NCBI RefSeq assembly: GCF_000372725.1
Contig: NW_005201792.1
Location: 1 to 36,183 of the forward strand
DNA from: Emiliania huxleyi CCMP1516
Taxonomy: Eukaryota
Reading direction: 5' to 3'
DNA length: 36,183 bases
Part shown: in pieces, positions 3,261 through 20,448 of the stretch
How positions within the stretch are numbered: the stretch's first letter is position 1
How the letters are laid out: each line of letters starts with the position of its first letter
Made by a program: the position numbers and the translations under genes
Notes under the pieces: model-generated
What the model was told of the DNA's origin: nothing
Databases searched by the model: none
What the model saw: the letters and a program-made list of their open reading frames with translations, nothing else

Positions 3261-4882
3261 CCTCGCCGCCGCCGCCACCGCCCTCCCCCCGCCGCTGAGC
3301 GGTGCTTGGCGAGCCTCTCACCGTCCCGGCCGCGGTGGTGCGGGGTGCGCCGACACCGCGACAGCCTGTGCACACTCTCTCCTTCTCTGTACTGTACTGC
3401 GCCGCCGGCGCCGCCACGCATGCAGTTGGGTGCTTGGATCAGCGGCGTGAGCCGAGAGGTGGCCCACCGCTGACAGCGCTCAGCGCGGGGGGGGGGGGGG
3501 GGGCGCCCCCCGCGCCCACACACGCGCGGGACGCGCCCCGGCAGCAGCTCCTGCCTCCTCTCCGCTCTCGCGCCACCCCGCGCGCGGGGGCGTGACGTCC
3601 TGCTCGTTCTCAGCGCAGCGCTCTTGTATTCACACCCGCACAGCACCCTAAGGTATTTTTATATTCCCCCACCCGGGTGAGTGGGTGGGTGGGAATTTTA
3701 TATTTAGCAATATGAGCCGCCGTCCCCCTCTTTCTCGAGTCCGCCGACCGCTATAGGTCGAGCGGGGAGAGAGGCGCTGCCTCCACGGCGGGGACGGAGG
3801 CGACACCTCCGTCCCCACCGCCATTGGTTCGAGCGGCAAGCCTTAGGTAGAGCGGGGACGGAGACGTGAAAAGCGTGCTTGTGAGTGGAAGCCACAAGCG
3901 CGCTGGCTCCGGTCGTTTTTATATGAGGGTGTTTTTCTGAGGGTGTGTTTTCTTGAAGCCTTTCTTAAACTGGGTAACGAACCCCTGTCACTCCGTGAAG
4001 TGAACAGAAGAGAGGTGTGAACAGACTGGCGTGCTGATCGCGAAGAGGCGCCATGTCATCGGACACCGAGAGCACGGTCTGCGACCCGCGGTTAGAGGTC
4101 GCACCCGAGCCGCAAGTCCCCAAGGGGCCGGGCCAGATAAGGCGCGTGCCCCAGCTGTTCTCCTGTTCACAGCAACAGCACGGTCTACCCCTGTCGTCCC
4201 ACCCCAAGTGCAGCAGACGTCTGGTGTAGCGAGGCGACGGTGGGACGGTGTCCGACCCGATCTGGGGTTAAGGTCCCTCGGGCCAGTTTCGGGGGGCAAA
4301 CCCCGCCCGGCCCCTAGAACCCCGGGTAAGGCCCAGGTATGGCCTAGGGCATCAGAAGGGACCAAGAGGAGTCCAGTCTGAGCCATAGAGCCCATGTCTT
4401 TGCCCCCGAAGGTCGCGTTCAAATGCCCGGAACGGACGTTACAGTGGTGTCCGGCCGGCGCGATCACCGAGCTGTGACGCTCAGGGAAGCCGGTTGAGGT
4501 GCTGGTTTCTTTGGCCAGGCCTGGCCAAACGCCTTTACGCTCCTCTTCGCCTTCGCTATGATGAGCCCACCACCATCCCCTCTCTTCCCCCTGGGTGGGA
4601 GACCCTGTCTGTCTATTTCACACACACTCACTGTCTGTCCATGTCAGGCGTGTGTGCGTGTGTGGGGGTTCAGCCGCGAAGCGAGCGGCCCGCCCTCCCC
4701 AGGCGAGCCGCCCGCATCCGCGGAGGACCATCTTGCGATTCGAAAAATGAAAGCCCTACTATCGAAGCAATATCGTACGACAAGGGTCGATCCTCTTCAC
4801 AGCTACCTGGCTACGAACAGGAACGCACCGACCTAGGCTCTTGGGTGGCGCGCCCTAGCTCTTCACAACGAACCTGGTTAGA

Positions 4883-7800
4883 ATGGCGCCCCCGCTCGAG
4901 CTTCGCACTGGCGCGCACTGGATCTTTGGCTACGGCAGCATAATCAGCGAGCGGAGTCTCCAGGCCACTCTGCAAGGTGCGGCAGACTCGGGTCAGGCGG
5001 GTCAGGAGCAGTCCTCGGCCGCTGTGGTCGAAATGGCTGCGAGCGCCGGCTGGGTGAGGGAGTGGTGCTTTCGCGCTCCATCAGGATTCACCGCCGTCGG
5101 CCTGCGCGCGGATAGCGCGTCCGCAATGCCGGTGAACGGCATCATCTTCCGCGTGGGCAGTGACGCCCTCAGCCGCTTTGACGCTCGAGAAGTGGGCTAC
5201 GAGCGAGTGGAGGTCAGTGCTGCCGCGCTTCGAGTACTTATCGACCCCGACGGCGTTGCCACCGACGCGCTGCAGGACACCGGCAACTGCTTCTGGACGT
5301 ACGTGCCGCGCGAGTGCCACTCCGCCACCGAGGAGTGCCCGATCTGTCAAACTTACTTGGACGTCTGCTTGGCTGGCTGCCTCGAGCGCGGAGGGCGCGA
5401 ACTCGCCTCCGAGTGGGTGCGCACGACGAGCGAGTGGTCGCACTTCTGGCTTAACGACGCACCGATGAGTCGGCGGCCGTGGCTCCACCGGCCGCGTTAC
5501 GCCGAGGTCGATAGCGTCCTTCGCGAAGCCTCGGCGCACACGCTTTTTCACGAGCGGCGCCACCCTGAGGAGTTTAGCGGTCGCTGGACGGGCGACCTGC
5601 GCGGGCTGTGGGGCGTGCCGCCGAGAAACCCCTGCTTTGTGGGCCGCGACGCCGCGCTCAGCCGACTGGCGTCGGCCATGCACGGTGGCGAGAGCATACG
5701 GTCGGTCCGCGGCGACGCAGCCAGCGGCGACGCGGGTGGCAGGGAAGCCAGCGGCGAGACGGGTAGCCAACAGGGCGTGCTGACGACAGTGGAGCTCGTG
5801 GGGATGGGCGGTGTGGGCAAGACGCAGCTGGCGACGGAGTACGCGTACCGCCATTTCGCCGCGGCCTCCAAATTAGACGCCAAAGGCTCACGGCGGGCTG
5901 GCTACGGTCTCGTCGTCTGGCTACGTGCTGAGTCGGCCGAGGCCCTCGCCGCAGACTTGCGCAGCGTGGCCAACGACTGCGGCATCGGCGTGCAGGGCTT
6001 GCGCTCGGACCAGGTGATTGCCGTAGCGAGCGGGCCGTAAGAGTGGAAGTCCGCGAGGTACCAGGTGATTGCCGTAGGTGATTGCCGAGATGCGCGCGCG
6101 ACTGTATCGAACGCGCAGCCCGTGGCTGCTCGTGCTCGACAACATGTCCAGCTCCGCCCTCATGTCCAGCTCCGAGAAGGGCGTGCTGCCTCGAGGCTGC
6201 GTGAGCGTTGGCCACGTCCTGGTCACTTCGCGCGTGGCGACGCTCTCGCCCGAGGCGCAGCGCGCGGACGCGCACGCAAACGCGCTCCTGCTCGGCTGCC
6301 TCTCGATCCCAGAGTCGCTCGAGCTGCTGCGCCAGGCGGGCGGCGAACATTTGGGAGTCGACGAGCTCTGCCCCAGAAGCACGAGCTCCGCCCACGCCCG
6401 CACGGACGCCGGCTCGCCGCTCGTGCGACGCCGGGGCGGCTCGCATTCAGGCCCGGTGCACCCGGGTGAGGAAATGCCGACGGCGGGGGTGGTCGTCGCG
6501 GCGAAGCTCGGCTATTTGCCGCTTGCTCTAGCGCTCGCGGCCGCGTACATGCGCGCGTGCGATGTCTCATGCGCAAGCTACCTCCAACGGCTCGCCGAAG
6601 CGAGCGACGGCGCCGGCGCCGCCGCGGGCGCCGAGCTGCTTCAAGGGTACCCTTTGGGCGTCGCCGAGTCGTTTGAGCTCTCGCTGCAGCAGCTGGACGT
6701 GCCCGCCGTCGACGCGGTGTACAAGGGCGGCGGTGGCGCGGAGCGGCCGTCGGCGGCTTCAGTGGGCGCGCGCGACGTGCTTGACGTGCTCGCGTTCTGC
6801 GCGAGCGAGAATATCCCAAAGGGCTTGGTGAGCGCCGCGATCCGCGGGATGGTTGCGTGCGGCGCCGAGCGCGCGCGGGGGCACGAGGCGGCTCAGGCCA
6901 CGGCGGGTGACCCTGCGCCGGAGTCGCGTGCGCCGCTCTCCTCATTTTGGCGGTGGATGGATCCATCAGACGCGAGTGGTGCGCTAACCATCGCTTGCGG
7001 TGGCGTGGCGGCGGGCACGGCGGTAGCAGCCTGCTTGGCACCTCGCCGCCACCGCCGCCGGTGGCTTCTGACCTCCGCAGTGGCCGCGGGTGCCGCGGCG
7101 GCAGCTGCTGCGGCGCTGGCCTTCCGGCGTGCGGACGCCGGCCTACCGCCGACGGCAGCGGGGTCCCCACCAACGGTTCGCTCGGAGGAGCCCGGGGCGT
7201 GCGCGCGCACGCATCCGCAGCCGGTGGCGGCGGCGCATCCGCTGCTGCTGGCGCAGGGCACGGCGCTCTGCGGCGGCGGCGGCGGCGGCGTGCTGCAAGC
7301 GGAGGCAGTGGCGGTCGCCGATCGGACGTGGCTCAAGCTCAAGCAGTTCTCGCTCCTCTCGGTGCGTGAGAACGCACACGGCGAGCGCACTGGCTGCTTG
7401 CACCGGCTGCTCGGCCAGAGCTTGCGCGCGCACATGGACAGCCACGCGGCGGCGCACACACTGGGCGTTTGCGTGTGGGCGCTCGAGCAGCATTGGGCGT
7501 TTGACCCTGCGGACACGACCACATGGACGGCCGCGACGGCGGTTCTCGGCCATGTCCAGGCTGTCGGCCGGCACACGCACGCGCTGCTCCGGGGTGCGGC
7601 CGAGGCAGACGAGTGCGAGGGTGCGGGCGCGGGGCCGGAGCACGAGCTCGTTGCCGCACTCCAGCTCCGAGTCTCGGCGTTGCTCACGCAGGGGGCGCTG
7701 TGCATGTGCTTCGCCCTCTCTCGTTTCGACCAGGCGCAGCAAGCGCTCGAGGCGGCGCGCGCAATCCAGCAGAGCTTGCTCCCGCCCGGCGGCGTGGCGT

Positions 7801-9920
7801 GCGGCGGCGGCGCGTGCAGCCTGCAGCGAGGGCGGGCGCTTACCCTCGACACAGCGGGCAAGGTCGCGCGCTACTCAGGCAAACTGACTGAGGCCGAGGC
7901 GCTGCTCCGAGAGGCGTTGCAGCTCTGGCGCGACAGTGGCGACGAGGGCGGCGCCGCGGCGACGCTGCACGAGCTCGGCGTGGTGCATTTGCGCCGCGCG
8001 GAGTGGGAATCGGCGACGGCGCTACTGAAGCAGTCTCTGGCGATGAAACGCGAGAGGCGCCCGTGTGGGACGACCAACCGCATCGGCAACTGCATCGGCA
8101 AGGCGGCCGCGAGCAGCGGCGGCGGCGGCGTCGGCACGGCACGCCACCACTCGCGATTTCCAACGGAGGCGGCGACGCTTCACCAACTCGCGGTCGCCGC
8201 GATGTCGAGCAAGCCGCCACGGTTGGCAGAGGCGGACGCGCTTCTGCGGGAGGCGCTCGCGCTCGAGGACCAGGGACCTTTTGCACTCGGCGCGCGTGCG
8301 GCGACGCTGCAGCAGCTCGCACGCGTCGCTGAGCGCTGCGGCGACGCGCACGCGGCACGCGCGCACCTCGAGGAGGCGCTGGCGATGCAGACCCGCGCGT
8401 ATGGCGAAGGCGTGGCGCACGTGAACAAGGCGGCGACTCTCTCGCAGCTGGCAAGCCTCGCTCTGCAGTCGGGCGACACTGAGCACGCGTCGCAGGTGCT
8501 CGGCGAGGCCCTCGAGATGCGCCGGCAAATCTACGGCCACGGCGGCGGCCACGTCGAGGTCGCGCTCAATTTGGCCAAGCTCGGTGAGTGCGAGCGCGCG
8601 CGTGGCGGGCTTGCGCTGGCGGCGCACCGCTTCAGCGAGGCTCGAGTGATGCTCGAGGGCCTTGCGCTGCGCGAGGCGCGCGAGGCGCGCGAGGCGGGCG
8701 AGGCGGGCGAGTTGGGCGAGGCGCGCGAGGCGTGTGCCGCGCGGGTGGCGCGTGAGGCCAGCTCCGGCGGAGGCGAGGGGGTCTTGCAGCGGCTGCTGCG
8801 CGTCGTCTCTGTCACGTCGGGCGTGGACAGCGCGCTGCCAGCGAGGCTGCTTTCGCAGCTTCTCCAGGCGATCCGGTGGCAGCGTACCGTCGCCCGCGAG
8901 GCTGGCGAGGGCTTGCGCGCAGCTGAGCTCGCTGCAGAGGCGCAGCAGCTCCAGCACGCTTTGGAGGAGCAAAAGCAGGCCGCAGCTCAGCCGGAGGCCA
9001 CGGAGGACGGCCTGGCCGGCTTTGACCTCAACGGGGCGCTCGTCGCTTCGCTGGTCGCCTGCCGCGATCGCGTGCGCGAGACGCTGCTCGAGATGCGCGC
9101 GGCCGTGAGCCCAGCAGAGGTGCGGCCGTTGCACGGCGCGGCGCCCATCCAGAGTATCCTCGGCGCGGCGGAGGAGCTGGTACAAGTAATTCACGGAGCG
9201 AAGGCAAGGGAGGCGACTGCGGCGACAGGAGGTGCAGCCGAGCCGGAGGGCATGCGCGAGGAGGCCAAGGCAGAGGGGCTGAATGCGGCGCTCCGGTCCT
9301 CGGGGCTCGCGTTTGTGCTGGAGCTGCGAGCCAGTGTGGCGGAGGAGCGTGAGTCGCGCCGCTTCCTGGCGCGAGCATTCGCGGCGTGTGATGGGCTGCG
9401 CAAGAGCCTGCGCGAGGCTGGCGTCTTGCTGACGGATCTGCAGTCTGAGAGCGCCTACCGCTCACGCGTCATCTCGCACGTGAAGCGGCTGGCCTCGACC
9501 GGCGACTACGCTTTGAGCGAGAAGGCGCTGCTCCGGCTGCAAGCCACCTTCGGCTCGCTGACCGTCGACGCTTTCGCCTCGGCGGCGACGGCGCAGCTGC
9601 CTCGCTTCTGGAGTCGCGACGCCGTCCGCGGCGCAGAGGGTATCGACGCCTTCGCTCAGCGGTGGGAAGACGAGCGTCTGCTCGTGCACGCCCCCGTGAG
9701 CTTGCTCAACCAAGTCGTCGAGAAGCTCGAGGCTTCGCCGACGGCATCGGCTGTGGTCGTCTGCCCCTACTGGACGGGCGCCCCCTGGTTTGCGAGCTTC
9801 CAGCGGCTCGCGAGCGACTCGCTCGTGCTGCCACCCGGCTCTCTCCGAGCGATTGCCACCAGGACTAGCCACGTTAAGTGCTGGCGGGCGATCGCCTTTT
9901 ATGTGCCGCCAAGAGAGTAA
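4883..9920 (+). CDS. NLR-like STAND protein: GGCT/ChaC-like domain + NB-ARC + TPR repeats + DIRS-type DNA adenine methyltransferase-like domain; exons 4883-6013 and 6078-9920
   Basis: WIFGYGSIIS...FDAREVGY...QTYLDVCLAGC (GGCT-like); VPPRNPCFVGR, Walker A GMGGVGKTQLA, Walker B WLLVLDN, GHVLVTSR, LGYLPLAL, LHRL (NB-ARC); repeated AATLH(E/Q)L TPR helices; C-terminal TVDAFAS..AQLPRFWS..GIDAFAQRW..VVCPYW..APWF. A 64-nt GT-AG intron (6014-6077) joins the two ORFs in frame. Confidence 0.85.
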
Positions 9921-10243: not shown

Positions 10244-13200
10244 TCAGGGCATCCGAATGGTCAGAGTCCGCGGCCGCTCACTCCAAGCAGCGGCCCCCAG
10301 GAGATGCCTGCCGAGCAGGTCGAGCTGCGCGACCGCATCGGCGGCGTGCTCGCGCAGCAGCGGGTCCGCGGCGCCGTCGCGCGTCAGCCGCAACTGCGCG
10401 TAGATCTGCCGCAGCTGCGAGGGCGGGAGGACTGCCGCCCCGTCGGTGCCGAGCTGCTGCAGCGTCAAGCCCACGAGGTAGGCGGCGGCGCGCGCCTCGT
10501 CGACGCACGCACGCTCCTCCGCGCTGCCGCCGTCCCCGGGCTCCTCCGTCTCGCGCGCAGGCGCGGCTGCTGGCGCGGCCGATGAGGTGGAAGCGGCCGA
10601 ATCCAGCCTGCGCCGATCGGCCTCTGCGGCGGCGGCCTGGAACAGCGCGTTGTTCCGGTGCGGCTGCAGCGCCGACGTGGCGAGCGTGAGCAGCTCGACT
10701 GCGTACGGATGCAGCGCCTGGTGCATGAATGCGGGGGACCGGGGTTGAGAGTGCGTTATCATGCCGTGTATTCAGAACGGCGCGCGAGGAGGAGAGAGCT
10801 TCGCATACAGTTACAGCGACTACGACGCGGAGCGCGGAGTACAGCCGAATTCCGCGGGCCGCGTGTCGCCTCAAGTCCTGCTCGTTGAAGTCCAGGGACC
10901 TGTTTTCCGCATCTAGGGGTGCAGCGCTAGCCGCAGCGTGGAGGCCGCCGTCGCCAGCGCGGCGAGGCACGAAGCGCGGATAGCGGCGCAATCGTCGCGG
11001 GCACCGGCGAGGAGCGCCGCCATGGCGGCGTCGGCGTGGGGGGGGAGGGTCGCCCCCAAACGGAGCACGGCCTGGCACAGCGCCTGGGCGCCCTTGAGCC
11101 GCCGCTCGGTCGCGGCAGCTGCCCTCGCCTCGCAAGCGGCGGAGGGCCGGCGGCCAAGCTGCGGCTTGCCCTGTGGCAGGAGAAGCTCGGCGAGGCGCGG
11201 CATCACCGTGCGCGGCGAAACCTCGGCCGCCGCGGCGAGCGCGTTGAGGGCCGCCTGGTAGACGAAGGAGTCGTCGTGGGCCAACCGCAGCTTCGCGAGC
11301 TCGAGCAGCTGGCGGCGAGGGGCGGCGGCGGTGAGGGGGAGACCCACGGCAGGGGCGGCGAGCAAGGCGGAGAGGGGTGGATGCGACGGCGGGCGAGAAG
11401 CCCACCTGGGCCGCGGCGCGCGAGCTCAGAGGAAGGTGTCTGGGAAATGTCGAGGAGACAGGAACGCTCCGCGTCTAGCCGGTCAGTGTCTACGAGGAAG
11501 TGTCTGGAAGCGTCACCTCCTCCAACCGGCCAAGCGCCGCCTCCGAACGGCGAAGCAGCGCGTGCCGCACCTAGTGTGAATACTGGGACTTGAGTACGGT
11601 CTCGTGCCATGTGTTCGGCGCATCGCGTGAAGACTACAGCGGCAATACAGCTCGAAGGCAGTCGAATGCCTTCTCGAGCGCCGGCTGGAGACTAGGGCCC
11701 GTCTTCCGCATCTGGGGCCTCGAGATAGGGGGAGATGTTCCGCATCTAGGGCACCGCCACCGCCGCCAGCCCGGCGGCGACGCGGTACGGCTCCGCACGG
11801 CCGACGTCTCGCACCGCCTCTCTTAGCTCCGCCAGCTGCGCGGGCGAGTCCACCTGTGCCCCGGCGGGGATCGGTGGGCCAGGAGCGGTGTGCAAGCCTT
11901 GCGGTGTGCAAGCCTTGCGGTGTGCAAGCCTTGCGGTGTGCAAGCCTTGCGGTGTGCAAGCCTCGCGGGGCGAAGGGCCTGCTGCGGCCAAGGGTCTCGG
12001 AAGTGTCTCGGAAGGGGCTGCTCGGGAGGTGCGAGGTCGTAGTGTGCTGTCAATCTCGGGTGATCTCGGTGTCTTAGGCGACCTGGGGAAGTCTCGGAAG
12101 TGTCTCGGAAGTGTCTCTGAGGGCCTCCACGAGCCCAAGCGGCGGCGGGGTGCGCCCCCGCGGCTCCTCCTCGGCGAGGGACGTGGCGACCAGCAGCGAC
12201 GCGGCGAGGGCGGCGGCGCGAGGCGCCAGCGCTGCAGGCCCCGTGGCGGCGCACTGCTGCAGCGGCCCGAGCAGCCGCTCCCGAAGCCTCCGCTTGAGGG
12301 AGGGATGCTGCTGCGCCGCTTGCAGCAAGCACCCCCCAATCTGGAGGCAGAGGCTCAGGGTGCCACCCCCCTCCTCCTCCGCCTCCGCCTCCTCCTCCTC
12401 GTCGTCGTGATCGTCGCCACCGCCGCCGCCCCTCCCGCTCCCCCTCCTGCCCCCGCTCCCCGCAGCCCCCGCCGAGAGCAGCGACGCAAGCAGCGCCTAC
12501 GGGGCGGCGGGCGGCGGCATGGGACGGTCGCCGACTTGGTGCCCCGCCCCCCGCCCCCCCGCCCCCCGCCCCCCCCCTCCCCCCTCCCCGGCGCGCGCGC
12601 CAGCAGCGACGCGTTCGCGCCCTCCGCCCCGCCGTCCGCCCCGCCGTCCACAGCGCCTGGCTTGGCGACCTTTGAACCGGCCGCCGCCGCCGCCTCGGCC
12701 GCCGCGGCCGCCTCGGCCGCCGCGGCCGCCTCCGCCTCGGCCTCCGCAATCTGCGCGGCCAGCGCCGCGGAGTCTACGTCCTCGAGCAGCGGCGCGAGCA
12801 GCCCCTGAAGCCGGAGCAGCTGCAGCCCCGCCGCGGGCGCCGCGTCGCCGCCGCCCACCACTGCCGCCGCCGCGAGCAGCGCGCGCCGCAGCAGCAGCGC
12901 GACGAGGCTGCAGCCCACGCCTTGCAGCTCCGTCGAGCGGAGCGCACCCCGCGCCGCGCGCCGGAGTGAAGGGGAGGCCAACTCCGGCCCGCCGCCCGCC
13001 GCCGCCTCGCCGCCCGCCTCGCCGCCCGCCTCCTCCGCGAGAAGCGCCGAAGCGAGAGCCGCGGCGGGGGCGCTCGCGCCTCGGAGGAGCGCAGTCAGTG
13101 CCTCGCCCGCCGCCAGCTCCGCCGCCGTCGCGCCAGAGGCGCGCCGCGCCGCGAGCAGCCCGAGGAGCGCCTGCAGCGCGCCTGCTCACGGCCAGACGCG

Positions 13201-17128: not shown

Positions 17129-17576
17129 TGCGCGCGACCGTCAAACGGTATGTCCCGAGGGGCGAGGCGTGCGGTGCCGGTGCCTCCGAGTTTCGGCTTT
17201 GGTTGGGTGGCCCCAGTGATGAACACCACACGCTCAGGACCGCACAAGACCCTCCGGTGATGCGTGGCGCGTGGGGATCGAGGATCGTTGTGTCCCTTTC
17301 ACGGGTAAAAAATGATGAGAGATCTATGTGCCGCGTGCAATAGACCGCGAGCGACGCGCGACACCCGGAACACATGTGGGAGCGAGCGCCGCCGTTAGCG
17401 GTTAGGCGATGGGCATTAGAGGAGATAGAATCAAGATAAGAGGGGAGACAGAGCGAGGCAGCGCAGACGGGCCGAGAACCGTAGGGCCAGCGAGGCGACC
17501 CCGCGCATGGCGGAGAGACCCCGCCCGCCGCCCAGCCGAGTATGCTGTGTATGGCAGCACGAGGAAGCGGGGGGTC

Positions 17577-20448
<2,872 letters not shown>

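What the first reader, a model, noticed from the sequence alone, without database searches (positions are those of the whole stretch)
4883..9920. Algal NLR-like receptor: GGCT-like effector + NB-ARC + TPR + retrotransposon-derived methyltransferase-like domain
Seen: one spliced frame of about 1650 aa carrying all four motif sets. Known: effector-STAND-TPR is the architecture of fungal and bacterial NLR-like immune receptors, which often carry enzymatic N-terminal effectors; GGCT/ChaC-fold enzymes cleave gamma-glutamyl compounds such as glutathione. Inference: activation could trigger glutathione or other gamma-glutamyl metabolite depletion as a defence or cell-death output. I do not recall this combination being described.
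Basis: partly seen in the sequence, partly recalled or inferred. Interest (0 to 1): 0.9.

Follow-up and report, generated by a model that had tools for sequence, protein, structure and literature searches.

The report
Protist glutathione-cutting switch with tRNA-reading tail
This spliced algal gene belongs to a family shared by distant plankton lineages that joins a predicted glutathione-cutting enzyme to an immune-receptor-type ATP switch and a tail resembling the tRNA-reading end of cysteinyl-tRNA synthetase, so it likely switches on glutathione breakdown in response to cysteine tRNA; in this lineage it has also kept a retrotransposon methyltransferase domain.

Summary
4883-6013 and 6078-9920 splice into one 1657-aa frame; RNA contigs carry the junction. 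The organism is Emiliania huxleyi or a near relative. The N-terminus has the GGCT/ChaC fold, followed by an intact NB-ARC and TPRs. The last domain comes from a DIRS retrotransposon methyltransferase with an altered catalytic motif. The core is one conserved family, with named members in choanoflagellates, a chrysophyte and dinoflagellates. The methyltransferase is a late addition in one subclade. Its best-conserved residues match CysRS R423, R427, D436 and R439. Both ends therefore point to cysteine. Best reading (0.4): a tRNA-Cys-gated switch that breaks down glutathione to free cysteine. An immune or cell-death receptor is a close rival (0.33). No activity, binding or trigger was tested.

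The parts
4883..6013 (+). Exon 1 (377 codons)
   Evidence: RNA contigs 4833-6023
4913..5578 (+). GGCT/ChaC-fold domain of the FTN_0599-like subfamily; GYGS at 4928-4939, invariant Glu103 in D-x-R-E-x-G-Y at 5180-5200 (likely the catalytic residue, inferred)
   Evidence: E103 in 103 of 103 fused members covering the site
5609..7457 (+). NB-ARC (STAND) module across the intron: Walker A 5801-5824, Walker B 6126-6143, sensor 1 6219-6233, GLPL 6510-6530, MHD-like LHRLL 7398-7412
6014..6077 (+). 64-nt GT..AG intron with an 18-nt direct repeat at its two ends and a core that also occurs at another locus
6078..9920 (+). Exon 2 (1280 codons and stop)
6981..7121 (+). Two hydrophobic segments with an Arg-rich loop, inserted between the GLPL and MHD-like motifs; predicted membrane hairpin
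   Evidence: one or more segments in 42 of 47, two or more in 33 of 47; loop net positive in 18 of 26
7719..8657 (+). TPR array, conserved in register across the family
9039..9437 (+). CysRS anticodon-binding-like region in two blocks: R-x3-R helix (R996, R1000 of exon 2) and F-x3-D-x2-R...G...D (F1101, D1105, R1108, D1120), with a variable insert between them. This is the C-terminus in most of the family
9498..9917 (+). DIRS-type DAM-like methyltransferase domain, fused in frame; catalytic motif reads HAPV at 9687-9698

Best explanation
The gene encodes a conserved protist STAND (NB-ARC-TPR) protein whose predicted glutathione-cleaving GGCT domain is likely switched on when its CysRS-like tail binds cysteine tRNA, which would let one likely membrane-anchored protein turn a cysteine shortage into release of cysteine from glutathione. 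Shown: splicing, domain order, fold of the N-terminal domain, intact STAND motifs, family-wide conservation, and retroelement origin of the last domain. Inferred steps: (1) the two-block tail folds like the CysRS anticodon-binding domain and reads the GCA anticodon; (2) the TPR array tells uncharged or damaged tRNA from charged tRNA (no evidence here); (3) binding drives ADP/ATP exchange and oligomerisation, as in other STANDs; (4) the freed GGCT cuts glutathione to 5-oxoproline and Cys-Gly; (5) the hairpin holds the protein on a membrane. In one subclade a retrotransposon methyltransferase domain was joined at the old C-terminus and kept, probably as a non-catalytic binding module.
For: Tail: hhalign of the family block (26 rows) to 24 bacterial CysRS C-termini gives probability 90.7 and score 30.5 over 29 columns. 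Controls scored at most 15.6 (60 column shuffles), 13.9 (38 windows of the family's own alignment), 10.2 (17 non-overlapping CysRS windows) and 8.6 (reversed). The two best of 177,635 PDB sequences are both CysRS C-termini (E 0.17 and 0.51). Pfam CysS_C matches P0155 at E 0.005. Of 271 positions after the TPRs, the four best conserved in 39 rows are D1105 (39), R1108, R1000 and R996 (38 each); D1120 is in 33. They line up with E. coli CysRS D436, R439, R427, R423 and D451 (numbering counted from the 1LI5/1U0B alignment). R427, W432, D436 and R439 are the anticodon-contact positions targeted in PMC4536326 and PMC13449415 (passages). Head: GGCT fold with near-invariant GYGS and invariant Glu. 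The closest family model is named after a ChaC that frees cysteine from glutathione in a bacterium (PMC7340319 passages). A stand-alone relative is fused to arsenite methyltransferase (P0114), a glutathione-using enzyme (recalled). Housekeeping-like evolution: one clade of fused domains (100/99); pN/pS about 0.36 from 18 differences to one other strain. Precedent for the logic: cystine starvation acts through GCN2-ATF4-CHAC1 to degrade glutathione in human cells (PMC5777716, abstract).
Against: The CysRS match is short (about 29 columns) and not significant in any single database search. Only 1 of 26 blocks hit CysS_C, at E 0.068. A genome-wide search with the block did not return the CysRS of genome G001. 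The R-x3-R block alone aligned in the expected register but scored 12.4, below the best control window at 13.2. It lies 51-145 residues from the second block, against 9 in CysRS, so the domain may not fold as in CysRS. Only bacterial-type CysRS was compared. An anticodon reader cannot itself sense charging. The nearest STAND relatives are of the actinobacterial and fungal NB-ARC-TPR type (NF040586), whose characterised members are immune-like (recalled). The substrate is untested: the fold is as close to human GGCT as to ChaC, and a GGCT-like fold is also used by a transit peptide (10.1101/2025.01.15.633182, listing only).
Confidence: 0.4

Rival explanations
1. An NLR-like immune receptor. A conserved viral or bacterial signature, or damage to host tRNA-Cys, would trigger oligomerisation, and glutathione depletion would kill or stall the infected cell. 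The CysRS-like block and the retrotransposon domain would be integrated baits.
For: Effector-NB-ARC-TPR order, as in fungal NLRs with enzymatic N-termini (PMC4986451 passages). All switch motifs are kept. CHAC1 activity promotes ferroptosis and necroptosis in human cells. A captured transposon domain kept at 56-67% identity with a changed active site fits a bait. Receptors for conserved pathogen proteins need not be variable (Avs, listing only).
Against: No repeat polymorphism and low allelic variation. One conserved architecture across distant lineages, with no domain shuffling seen at the N-terminus in 55 of 56 long relatives. PADLOC gave only a generic TPR hit. No infection data were examined.
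Confidence: 0.33
2. A membrane-tethered gamma-glutamyl cyclotransferase regulated by some other cellular signal (nucleotide state, redox, a partner protein). The tail would be a CysRS-derived helical or general RNA-binding module with no tRNA-Cys specificity.
For: The CysRS similarity is short and split. The GGCT substrate range is wide. The hairpin is conserved as hydrophobicity, not as sequence.
Against: The residues kept in the tail are the charged ones that match anticodon-contact positions, more than the hydrophobic core, and both ends of the protein point to cysteine.
Confidence: 0.22
3. Assembly chimera or separate genes; the methyltransferase is a dead transposon remnant.
For: No single RNA contig spans the gene; intron-bearing RNA contigs exist.
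Against: Spliced junction contig. Intron-free full-length relatives P0003, P0013 and P0241. The methyltransferase domain is as well conserved (56-67%) as the GGCT (54-58%) and TPR (54-65%) parts and more than the linker (36-41%). No substitution falls in it among five alleles.
Confidence: 0.02

Closest known systems
Fungal and actinobacterial NB-ARC-TPR NLR-like proteins (NCBIfam NF040586 FxSxx_TPR; fungal NLR survey PMC4986451)
   Same: Enzymatic N-terminus, NB-ARC and TPR_10/TPR_12 array; best profile match of the middle part (E 1e-69 for P0023, below the cut-off).
   Different: GGCT is not among the N-terminal domains named in the passages read, and 'glutamyl' has 0 occurrences in that paper's main text. 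This family has an internal hydrophobic hairpin and a CysRS-like tail, and its TPRs are conserved, not hypervariable.
GGCT/ChaC enzymes (human GGCT 3CRY, yeast ChaC 5HWK, human ChaC2; bacterial FTN_0599 family NF049903)
   Same: Fold (Z 12.9, 10.9, 10.4), YGS motif and an invariant Glu.
   Different: 9-18% identity to solved members. Fused to a STAND switch instead of being stand-alone or periplasmic. Score far below the NF049903 cut-off.
Cysteinyl-tRNA synthetase anticodon-binding domain (Pfam PF23493 CysS_C; 1U0B)
   Same: R-x3-R, aromatic-x3-D-x2-R and G...D pattern at the anticodon-contact positions.
   Different: No synthetase catalytic domain; split by a 51-145-residue spacer; lacks the final T-T-W strand.
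DIRS retrotransposon DAM-like methyltransferase (10.64898/2026.05.21.726589)
   Same: Aligns over 153 columns with four element-encoded copies (probability 99.9) and more weakly with a phage Dam (86%).
   Different: Part of a host gene with no RT or RNase H. The catalytic triplet, Asn-Pro-Pro in nearly all DAMs (section 9), reads His-Ala-Pro-Val in 5 of 5 fused copies. The nearest elements already have His-Pro-Pro.
GCN2-ATF4-CHAC1 axis of mammals
   Same: Cysteine shortage leads to glutathione breakdown.
   Different: That is a multi-step transcriptional pathway; here it would be one protein acting directly. This is an analogy, not homology.

Membership tests
STAND / NB-ARC-TPR (NLR-like architecture) | Walker A, Walker B, sensor 1, GLPL and MHD-like motifs in order | tested here: met
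   Window. In 48 long members: 48, 41, 41, 46 and 48 by pattern (the last pattern is short and can match by chance).
STAND / NB-ARC-TPR (NLR-like architecture) | NB-ARC profile over the curated cut-off | tested here: inconclusive
   The window halves were scanned apart (E 0.024, under the cut-off). Over the cut-off in P0013, P0055, P0020, P0041, P0125 and P0155 (6 of 23 family proteins scanned).
STAND / NB-ARC-TPR (NLR-like architecture) | N-terminal effector and C-terminal superstructure repeats | tested here: met
NLR immune receptor (function) | Ligand-triggered oligomerisation and a defence or cell-death output | not testable with these tools
   No infection or biochemical data.
NLR immune receptor (fungal type) | Polymorphic, positively selected repeats | tested here: not met
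   5-10 differences in 1280 aa among five alleles and no TPR number change; small sample of assembled consensus sequences.
GGCT-fold superfamily | Cyclotransferase fold | tested here: met
GGCT-fold superfamily | YGS motif and catalytic Glu (PMC7022552) | tested here: met
   G18 in 91 of 91, S19 in 88 of 91, E103 in 103 of 103. That E103 is the catalytic Glu is inferred from motif position, not from a residue-level superposition.
ChaC (glutathione-specific) | Glutathione as substrate; ChaC or NF049903 profile over the cut-off | tested here: inconclusive
   NF049903 30.8 bits against a cut-off of 480; no Pfam ChaC hit in 29 members; activity not testable.
CysS_C anticodon-binding domain (PF23493) | Profile match over the cut-off | tested here: not met
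   Best 17.4 bits against 23 (P0155); the window block has no hit.
CysS_C anticodon-binding domain (PF23493) | Anticodon-contact residues kept in register | tested here: met
   D436, R439 and D451 equivalents by hhalign. The R423/R427 equivalents align in register but do not score above controls.
CysS_C anticodon-binding domain (PF23493) | Same fold and tRNA-Cys binding | not tested
DIRS DAM-like methyltransferase | Homology to the C-terminal domain of RT-RNase H retroelement proteins | tested here: met
   The L004 element copy hits phrog_111 DNA methyltransferase (E 1e-5) and Pfam Dam (E 0.032).
DIRS DAM-like methyltransferase | N-P-P-aromatic catalytic motif | tested here: not met
   HAPV in 5 of 5 fused copies.

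The most novel reading that the evidence does not exclude
A single-protein amino-acid starvation sensor. An NLR-type ATP switch that took over the anticodon reader of cysteinyl-tRNA synthetase detects uncharged or damaged tRNA-Cys and directly activates its own glutathione-cleaving domain at a membrane. It is conserved from choanoflagellates to stramenopiles, dinoflagellates and haptophytes, and in the coccolithophore lineage it carries a domesticated retrotransposon methyltransferase.
Probability: 0.3. Interest if true: 0.95.

Novelty: new variant of a known kind. Interest (0 to 1): 0.8.

Why it matters
If the best reading holds, this is an NLR-type switch whose ligand is a specific tRNA and whose output is sulfur recycling, in plankton that drive the marine sulfur cycle. 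That would extend STAND proteins from immunity into amino-acid sensing. If the immune reading holds, it gives a new effector class (glutathione destruction) and a concrete candidate receptor in a bloom-forming alga with a well-studied giant virus. Either way it is a clear case of a retrotransposon methyltransferase kept as part of a host protein. Each step can be tested with purified domains.

Tried and rejected
No whole genome is held for the window, so copy number per genome was not tested. Single-sequence fold of the GGCT domain gave pLDDT 39 and was discarded. Sequence searches of the PDB with exon 1 and with profile A2 found nothing. The two-copy prediction for the GGCT domain gave no verdict (score 0.00, alignment not used) and is not used either way. 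The wide VIA search was not run. ESM Atlas hits were all under 0.9 (ChaC-like 0.84; a Dam-containing cluster 0.79), leads only. Viral contigs held no relative of the GGCT domain among 71 candidate stretches. Prokaryote genomes gave 1 locus from 60 candidates, a stand-alone gene; this is a two-pattern scan and weak evidence of absence. The phage search with the methyltransferase domain gave 14 weak records, 13 apparently chance matches to a scaffolding gene and one Dam at E 0.7. The CysRS-like block did not retrieve CysRS in genome G001. No tRNA genes lie in the window. Of 48 neighbouring frames only enolase pieces hit Pfam. Other candidate introns were rejected because 6014-6077 matches the RNA junction and the intron-free relatives. 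Three look-ups of earlier findings returned nothing. Contig depth was not used as a measure of expression.
Full report
1. The gene. The window holds two open frames, 4859-6040 and 6078-9920. A 64-nt GT..AG intron at 6014-6077 joins the ATG at 4883 to the stop at 9920, giving 1657 aa. RNA runs X11 and X12, from one study, each hold a 48-nt contig that covers 5994-6023 and goes on with the letters of 6088-6105. Because ten bases repeat on both sides of the cut, this is exactly the spliced junction. Intron-bearing contigs are also present. The DNA-type runs X5 and X6 have no junction contig. Contigs of two further studies start at 6076 (X13) or stop at 6011 (X15), a weak hint only. The cluster of the exon-1 product (99% identical) includes a 208-aa partial protein of Emiliania huxleyi CCMP1516, so the window is that species or a close relative. 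No RNA contig spans the whole gene; they break in the short repeat near 8682-8704. Five other assemblies give the whole exon-2 frame, and three relatives (P0003, P0013, P0241) carry all domains in one intron-free frame.

2. N-terminal domain. NCBIfam NF049903 (ChaC, FTN_0599 family) matches residues 13-195 at E 1.9e-7, far under its cut-off. Pfam gives no GGCT-type hit for the window and GGACT at E 0.036 for 2 of 29 relatives. With a 97-row alignment the model reaches pLDDT 93. Its best matches are human GGCT (Foldseek E 2e-6; Z 12.9, rmsd 3.3, 153 aligned), YkqA, yeast ChaC and ChaC2. GYGS is nearly invariant and E103 is present in 103 of 103 fused members that cover it. GGCT-fold enzymes share a YGSL motif and a catalytic Glu (PMC7022552, passages); that E103 is this residue is inferred from its place. 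The bacterial namesake of the family model breaks down glutathione to supply cysteine (PMC7340319, passages). The substrate here is untested.

3. STAND and TPR. Walker A, Walker B, sensor 1, GLPL and an MHD-like motif are present in order and kept in most of 48 long members. The nearest profile is the actinobacterial NF040586. TPR_12 scores E 6e-19. The repeats align in register across the family with many fixed residues.

4. The family. A search with residues 1-245 among long proteins found 56 relatives; 55 have the NB-ARC part, 39 the TPR part and 2 the methyltransferase part. Named members are Didymoeca costata and Bicosta minor (choanoflagellates), Mallomonas annulata, Polarella glacialis and Prorocentrum cordatum (group names are from my own knowledge). 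Most of the 48 shorter hits continue into the start of the NB-ARC and look like first exons or fragments. The wide search found 1177 proteins at E 0.001 or better, of which I saw the best 150. In a tree of 77 GGCT domains the 40 fused rows (13 chosen, 27 drawn at random from 93) and 3 rows without NB-ARC form one side of a branch against 34 stand-alone rows, 100/99. The stand-alone rows were picked from an earlier FastTree, where support for the fused group was 0.76, and short fragments inside the group were left out. A single origin is therefore likely but the test is not fully independent. Whether the spread was vertical or by transfer was not tested.

5. Between GLPL and the MHD-like motif, 42 of 47 scorable proteins have at least one 19-residue window with mean hydropathy 1.6 or more, and 33 have two or more (50 examined, 3 lacked a pattern; in P0155 the second motif was misplaced). 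The sequence is not conserved but the character is. The loop is net positive in 18 of 26. A membrane hairpin is the likely reading; its topology is unknown, and the window's own segments are Ala-rich.

6. Of 58 proteins with the TPR array, 46 match a profile of the region after it; the profile was built from family members, so this counts presence only. Forty of them end within 51 residues of that region. Most of the other 12 stop in or just after the TPRs. The last block matches the C-terminus of bacterial CysRS by hhalign with probability 90.7 and score 30.5, against at most 15.6 in controls. In 726 frames from loci chosen for holding CysS_C, the 26 best hits all lay at the ends of CysRS-type frames. 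The two best PDB hits are CysRS C-termini, though at E 0.17 and 0.51. In 39 rows (46 minus 7 near-duplicates) the best-conserved of 271 positions are D1105, R1108, R1000 and R996, then C1104, D1120 and G1115. By the E. coli alignment they correspond to D436, R439, R427, R423 and D451, and F1101 to W432. R427, W432, D436 and R439 are the positions mutated to change anticodon recognition (PMC4536326 and PMC13449415, passages). Against this: the match is short; the window block has no Pfam hit; the search of genome G001 missed its CysRS; the R-x3-R block alone did not beat controls and sits 51-145 residues upstream. Homology of the last block is likely; tRNA-Cys binding is an inference.

7. The methyltransferase. 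A search with the last 166 residues found 8 proteins: one near-identical copy, four TPR-bearing relatives (56-68%) and three retroelement proteins (40-41%). The retroelement proteins carry RT and RNase H-like parts upstream. The fused and element copies align over 153 columns (99.9%), and the join falls right after the final Asp of the CysRS-like block, where most members end. The catalytic triplet is Asn-Pro-Pro in nearly all DAMs (10.64898/2026.05.21.726589, section 9). It reads HAPV in 5 of 5 fused copies and HPP or FPP in the elements. That preprint could not show activity for element DAMs in E. coli. The domain is as conserved as the enzyme and TPR parts. The four carriers with a GGCT domain on record lie in a 10-row clade (100/99) whose other six rows are too short to tell; that this clade is haptophyte is inferred. 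The domain was thus captured once, late, and kept, probably without methyl-transfer activity.

8. Mechanism. The simplest joint reading is a switch that links tRNA-Cys state to glutathione breakdown, like the mammalian GCN2-ATF4-CHAC1 route (PMC5777716, abstract) but in one chain. I give it 0.4. How charging would be sensed is not explained; the TPR array is the candidate. The immune reading (0.33) uses the same parts with a pathogen-made trigger, and tRNA damage would join the two readings. Low variation argues against the fungal type of receptor: pN/pS is about 0.36 from 18 sites, and alleles differ at 5-10 residues, whereas fungal repeats are hypervariable (PMC4986451, passages). It does not argue against a receptor for a conserved ligand.

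9. Novelty. Searches listed no title or abstract start that describes a GGCT/ChaC domain on an NB-ARC-TPR protein. I did not open most of the listed papers, and the library lacks most subscription journals. I ran no search aimed at a CysRS-like domain on an NLR. The DAM preprint (first fifth, passages and section 9 read) has no occurrence of 'TPR', 'NB-ARC' or 'domesticat' in its main text; its supplements could not be seen and might list this protein. PMC11580382 (passages) added nothing used here. The scaffold is a known kind; the effector, hairpin, tail and captured domain are new in this combination as far as these searches reach. Interest 0.8.

Noticed in passing
window 6009-6087: The intron looks recently gained. 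An 18-nt direct repeat lies at 6009-6026 and 6060-6077, and the 12-nt splice context occurs three times. The 30-nt core 6033-6062 also lies in other RNA and DNA contigs with different flanks. By eye those flanks read, on the opposite strand, like a Kelch-repeat exon (recalled motif, not tested). This fits a templated insertion at a repaired break. Close relatives have no intron here.
   Followed up: partly
window 6019-6052: Run X5 has one more short contig matching this part of the intron with a different left flank, possibly a third related locus.
   Followed up: no
window 4883-6040: If the intron is kept, the frame stops at 6038-6040 and gives a 385-aa product with the GGCT domain and Walker A only; intron-bearing contigs are present in the RNA runs and may be pre-mRNA or DNA.
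   Followed up: no
protein P0114: Two GGCT domains of this subfamily are fused to an arsenite methyltransferase (NCBIfam E 1e-57).
   Followed up: no
proteins P0113, P0115, P0119, P0151, P0159, P0165, P0166, P0188, P0217: Stand-alone relatives often carry two or three GGCT domains in tandem.
   Followed up: no
proteins P0052, P0103, P0149: Three GGCT domains inside the fused clade have no NB-ARC behind them; P0052 is from Symbiodinium natans. Secondary loss or gene-model artefact.
   Followed up: partly
L005 3929-4654: The bacterial stand-alone relative begins with a hydrophobic stretch that looks like a signal peptide, as described for the periplasmic bacterial ChaC.
   Followed up: no
window 8670-8730: A run of 9-bp units (REA/GEA codons) between the TPRs and the tail; RNA contigs break here.
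   Followed up: no
window 10281-11474, minus strand: A convergent neighbour; an RNA contig runs from the end of the gene to at least 10600. Its frame recalls the C-terminus of TANGO6/Rtp1 from memory, but Pfam gave no hit.
   Followed up: partly
window 17405-20448, minus strand: A multi-exon enolase gene.
   Followed up: no
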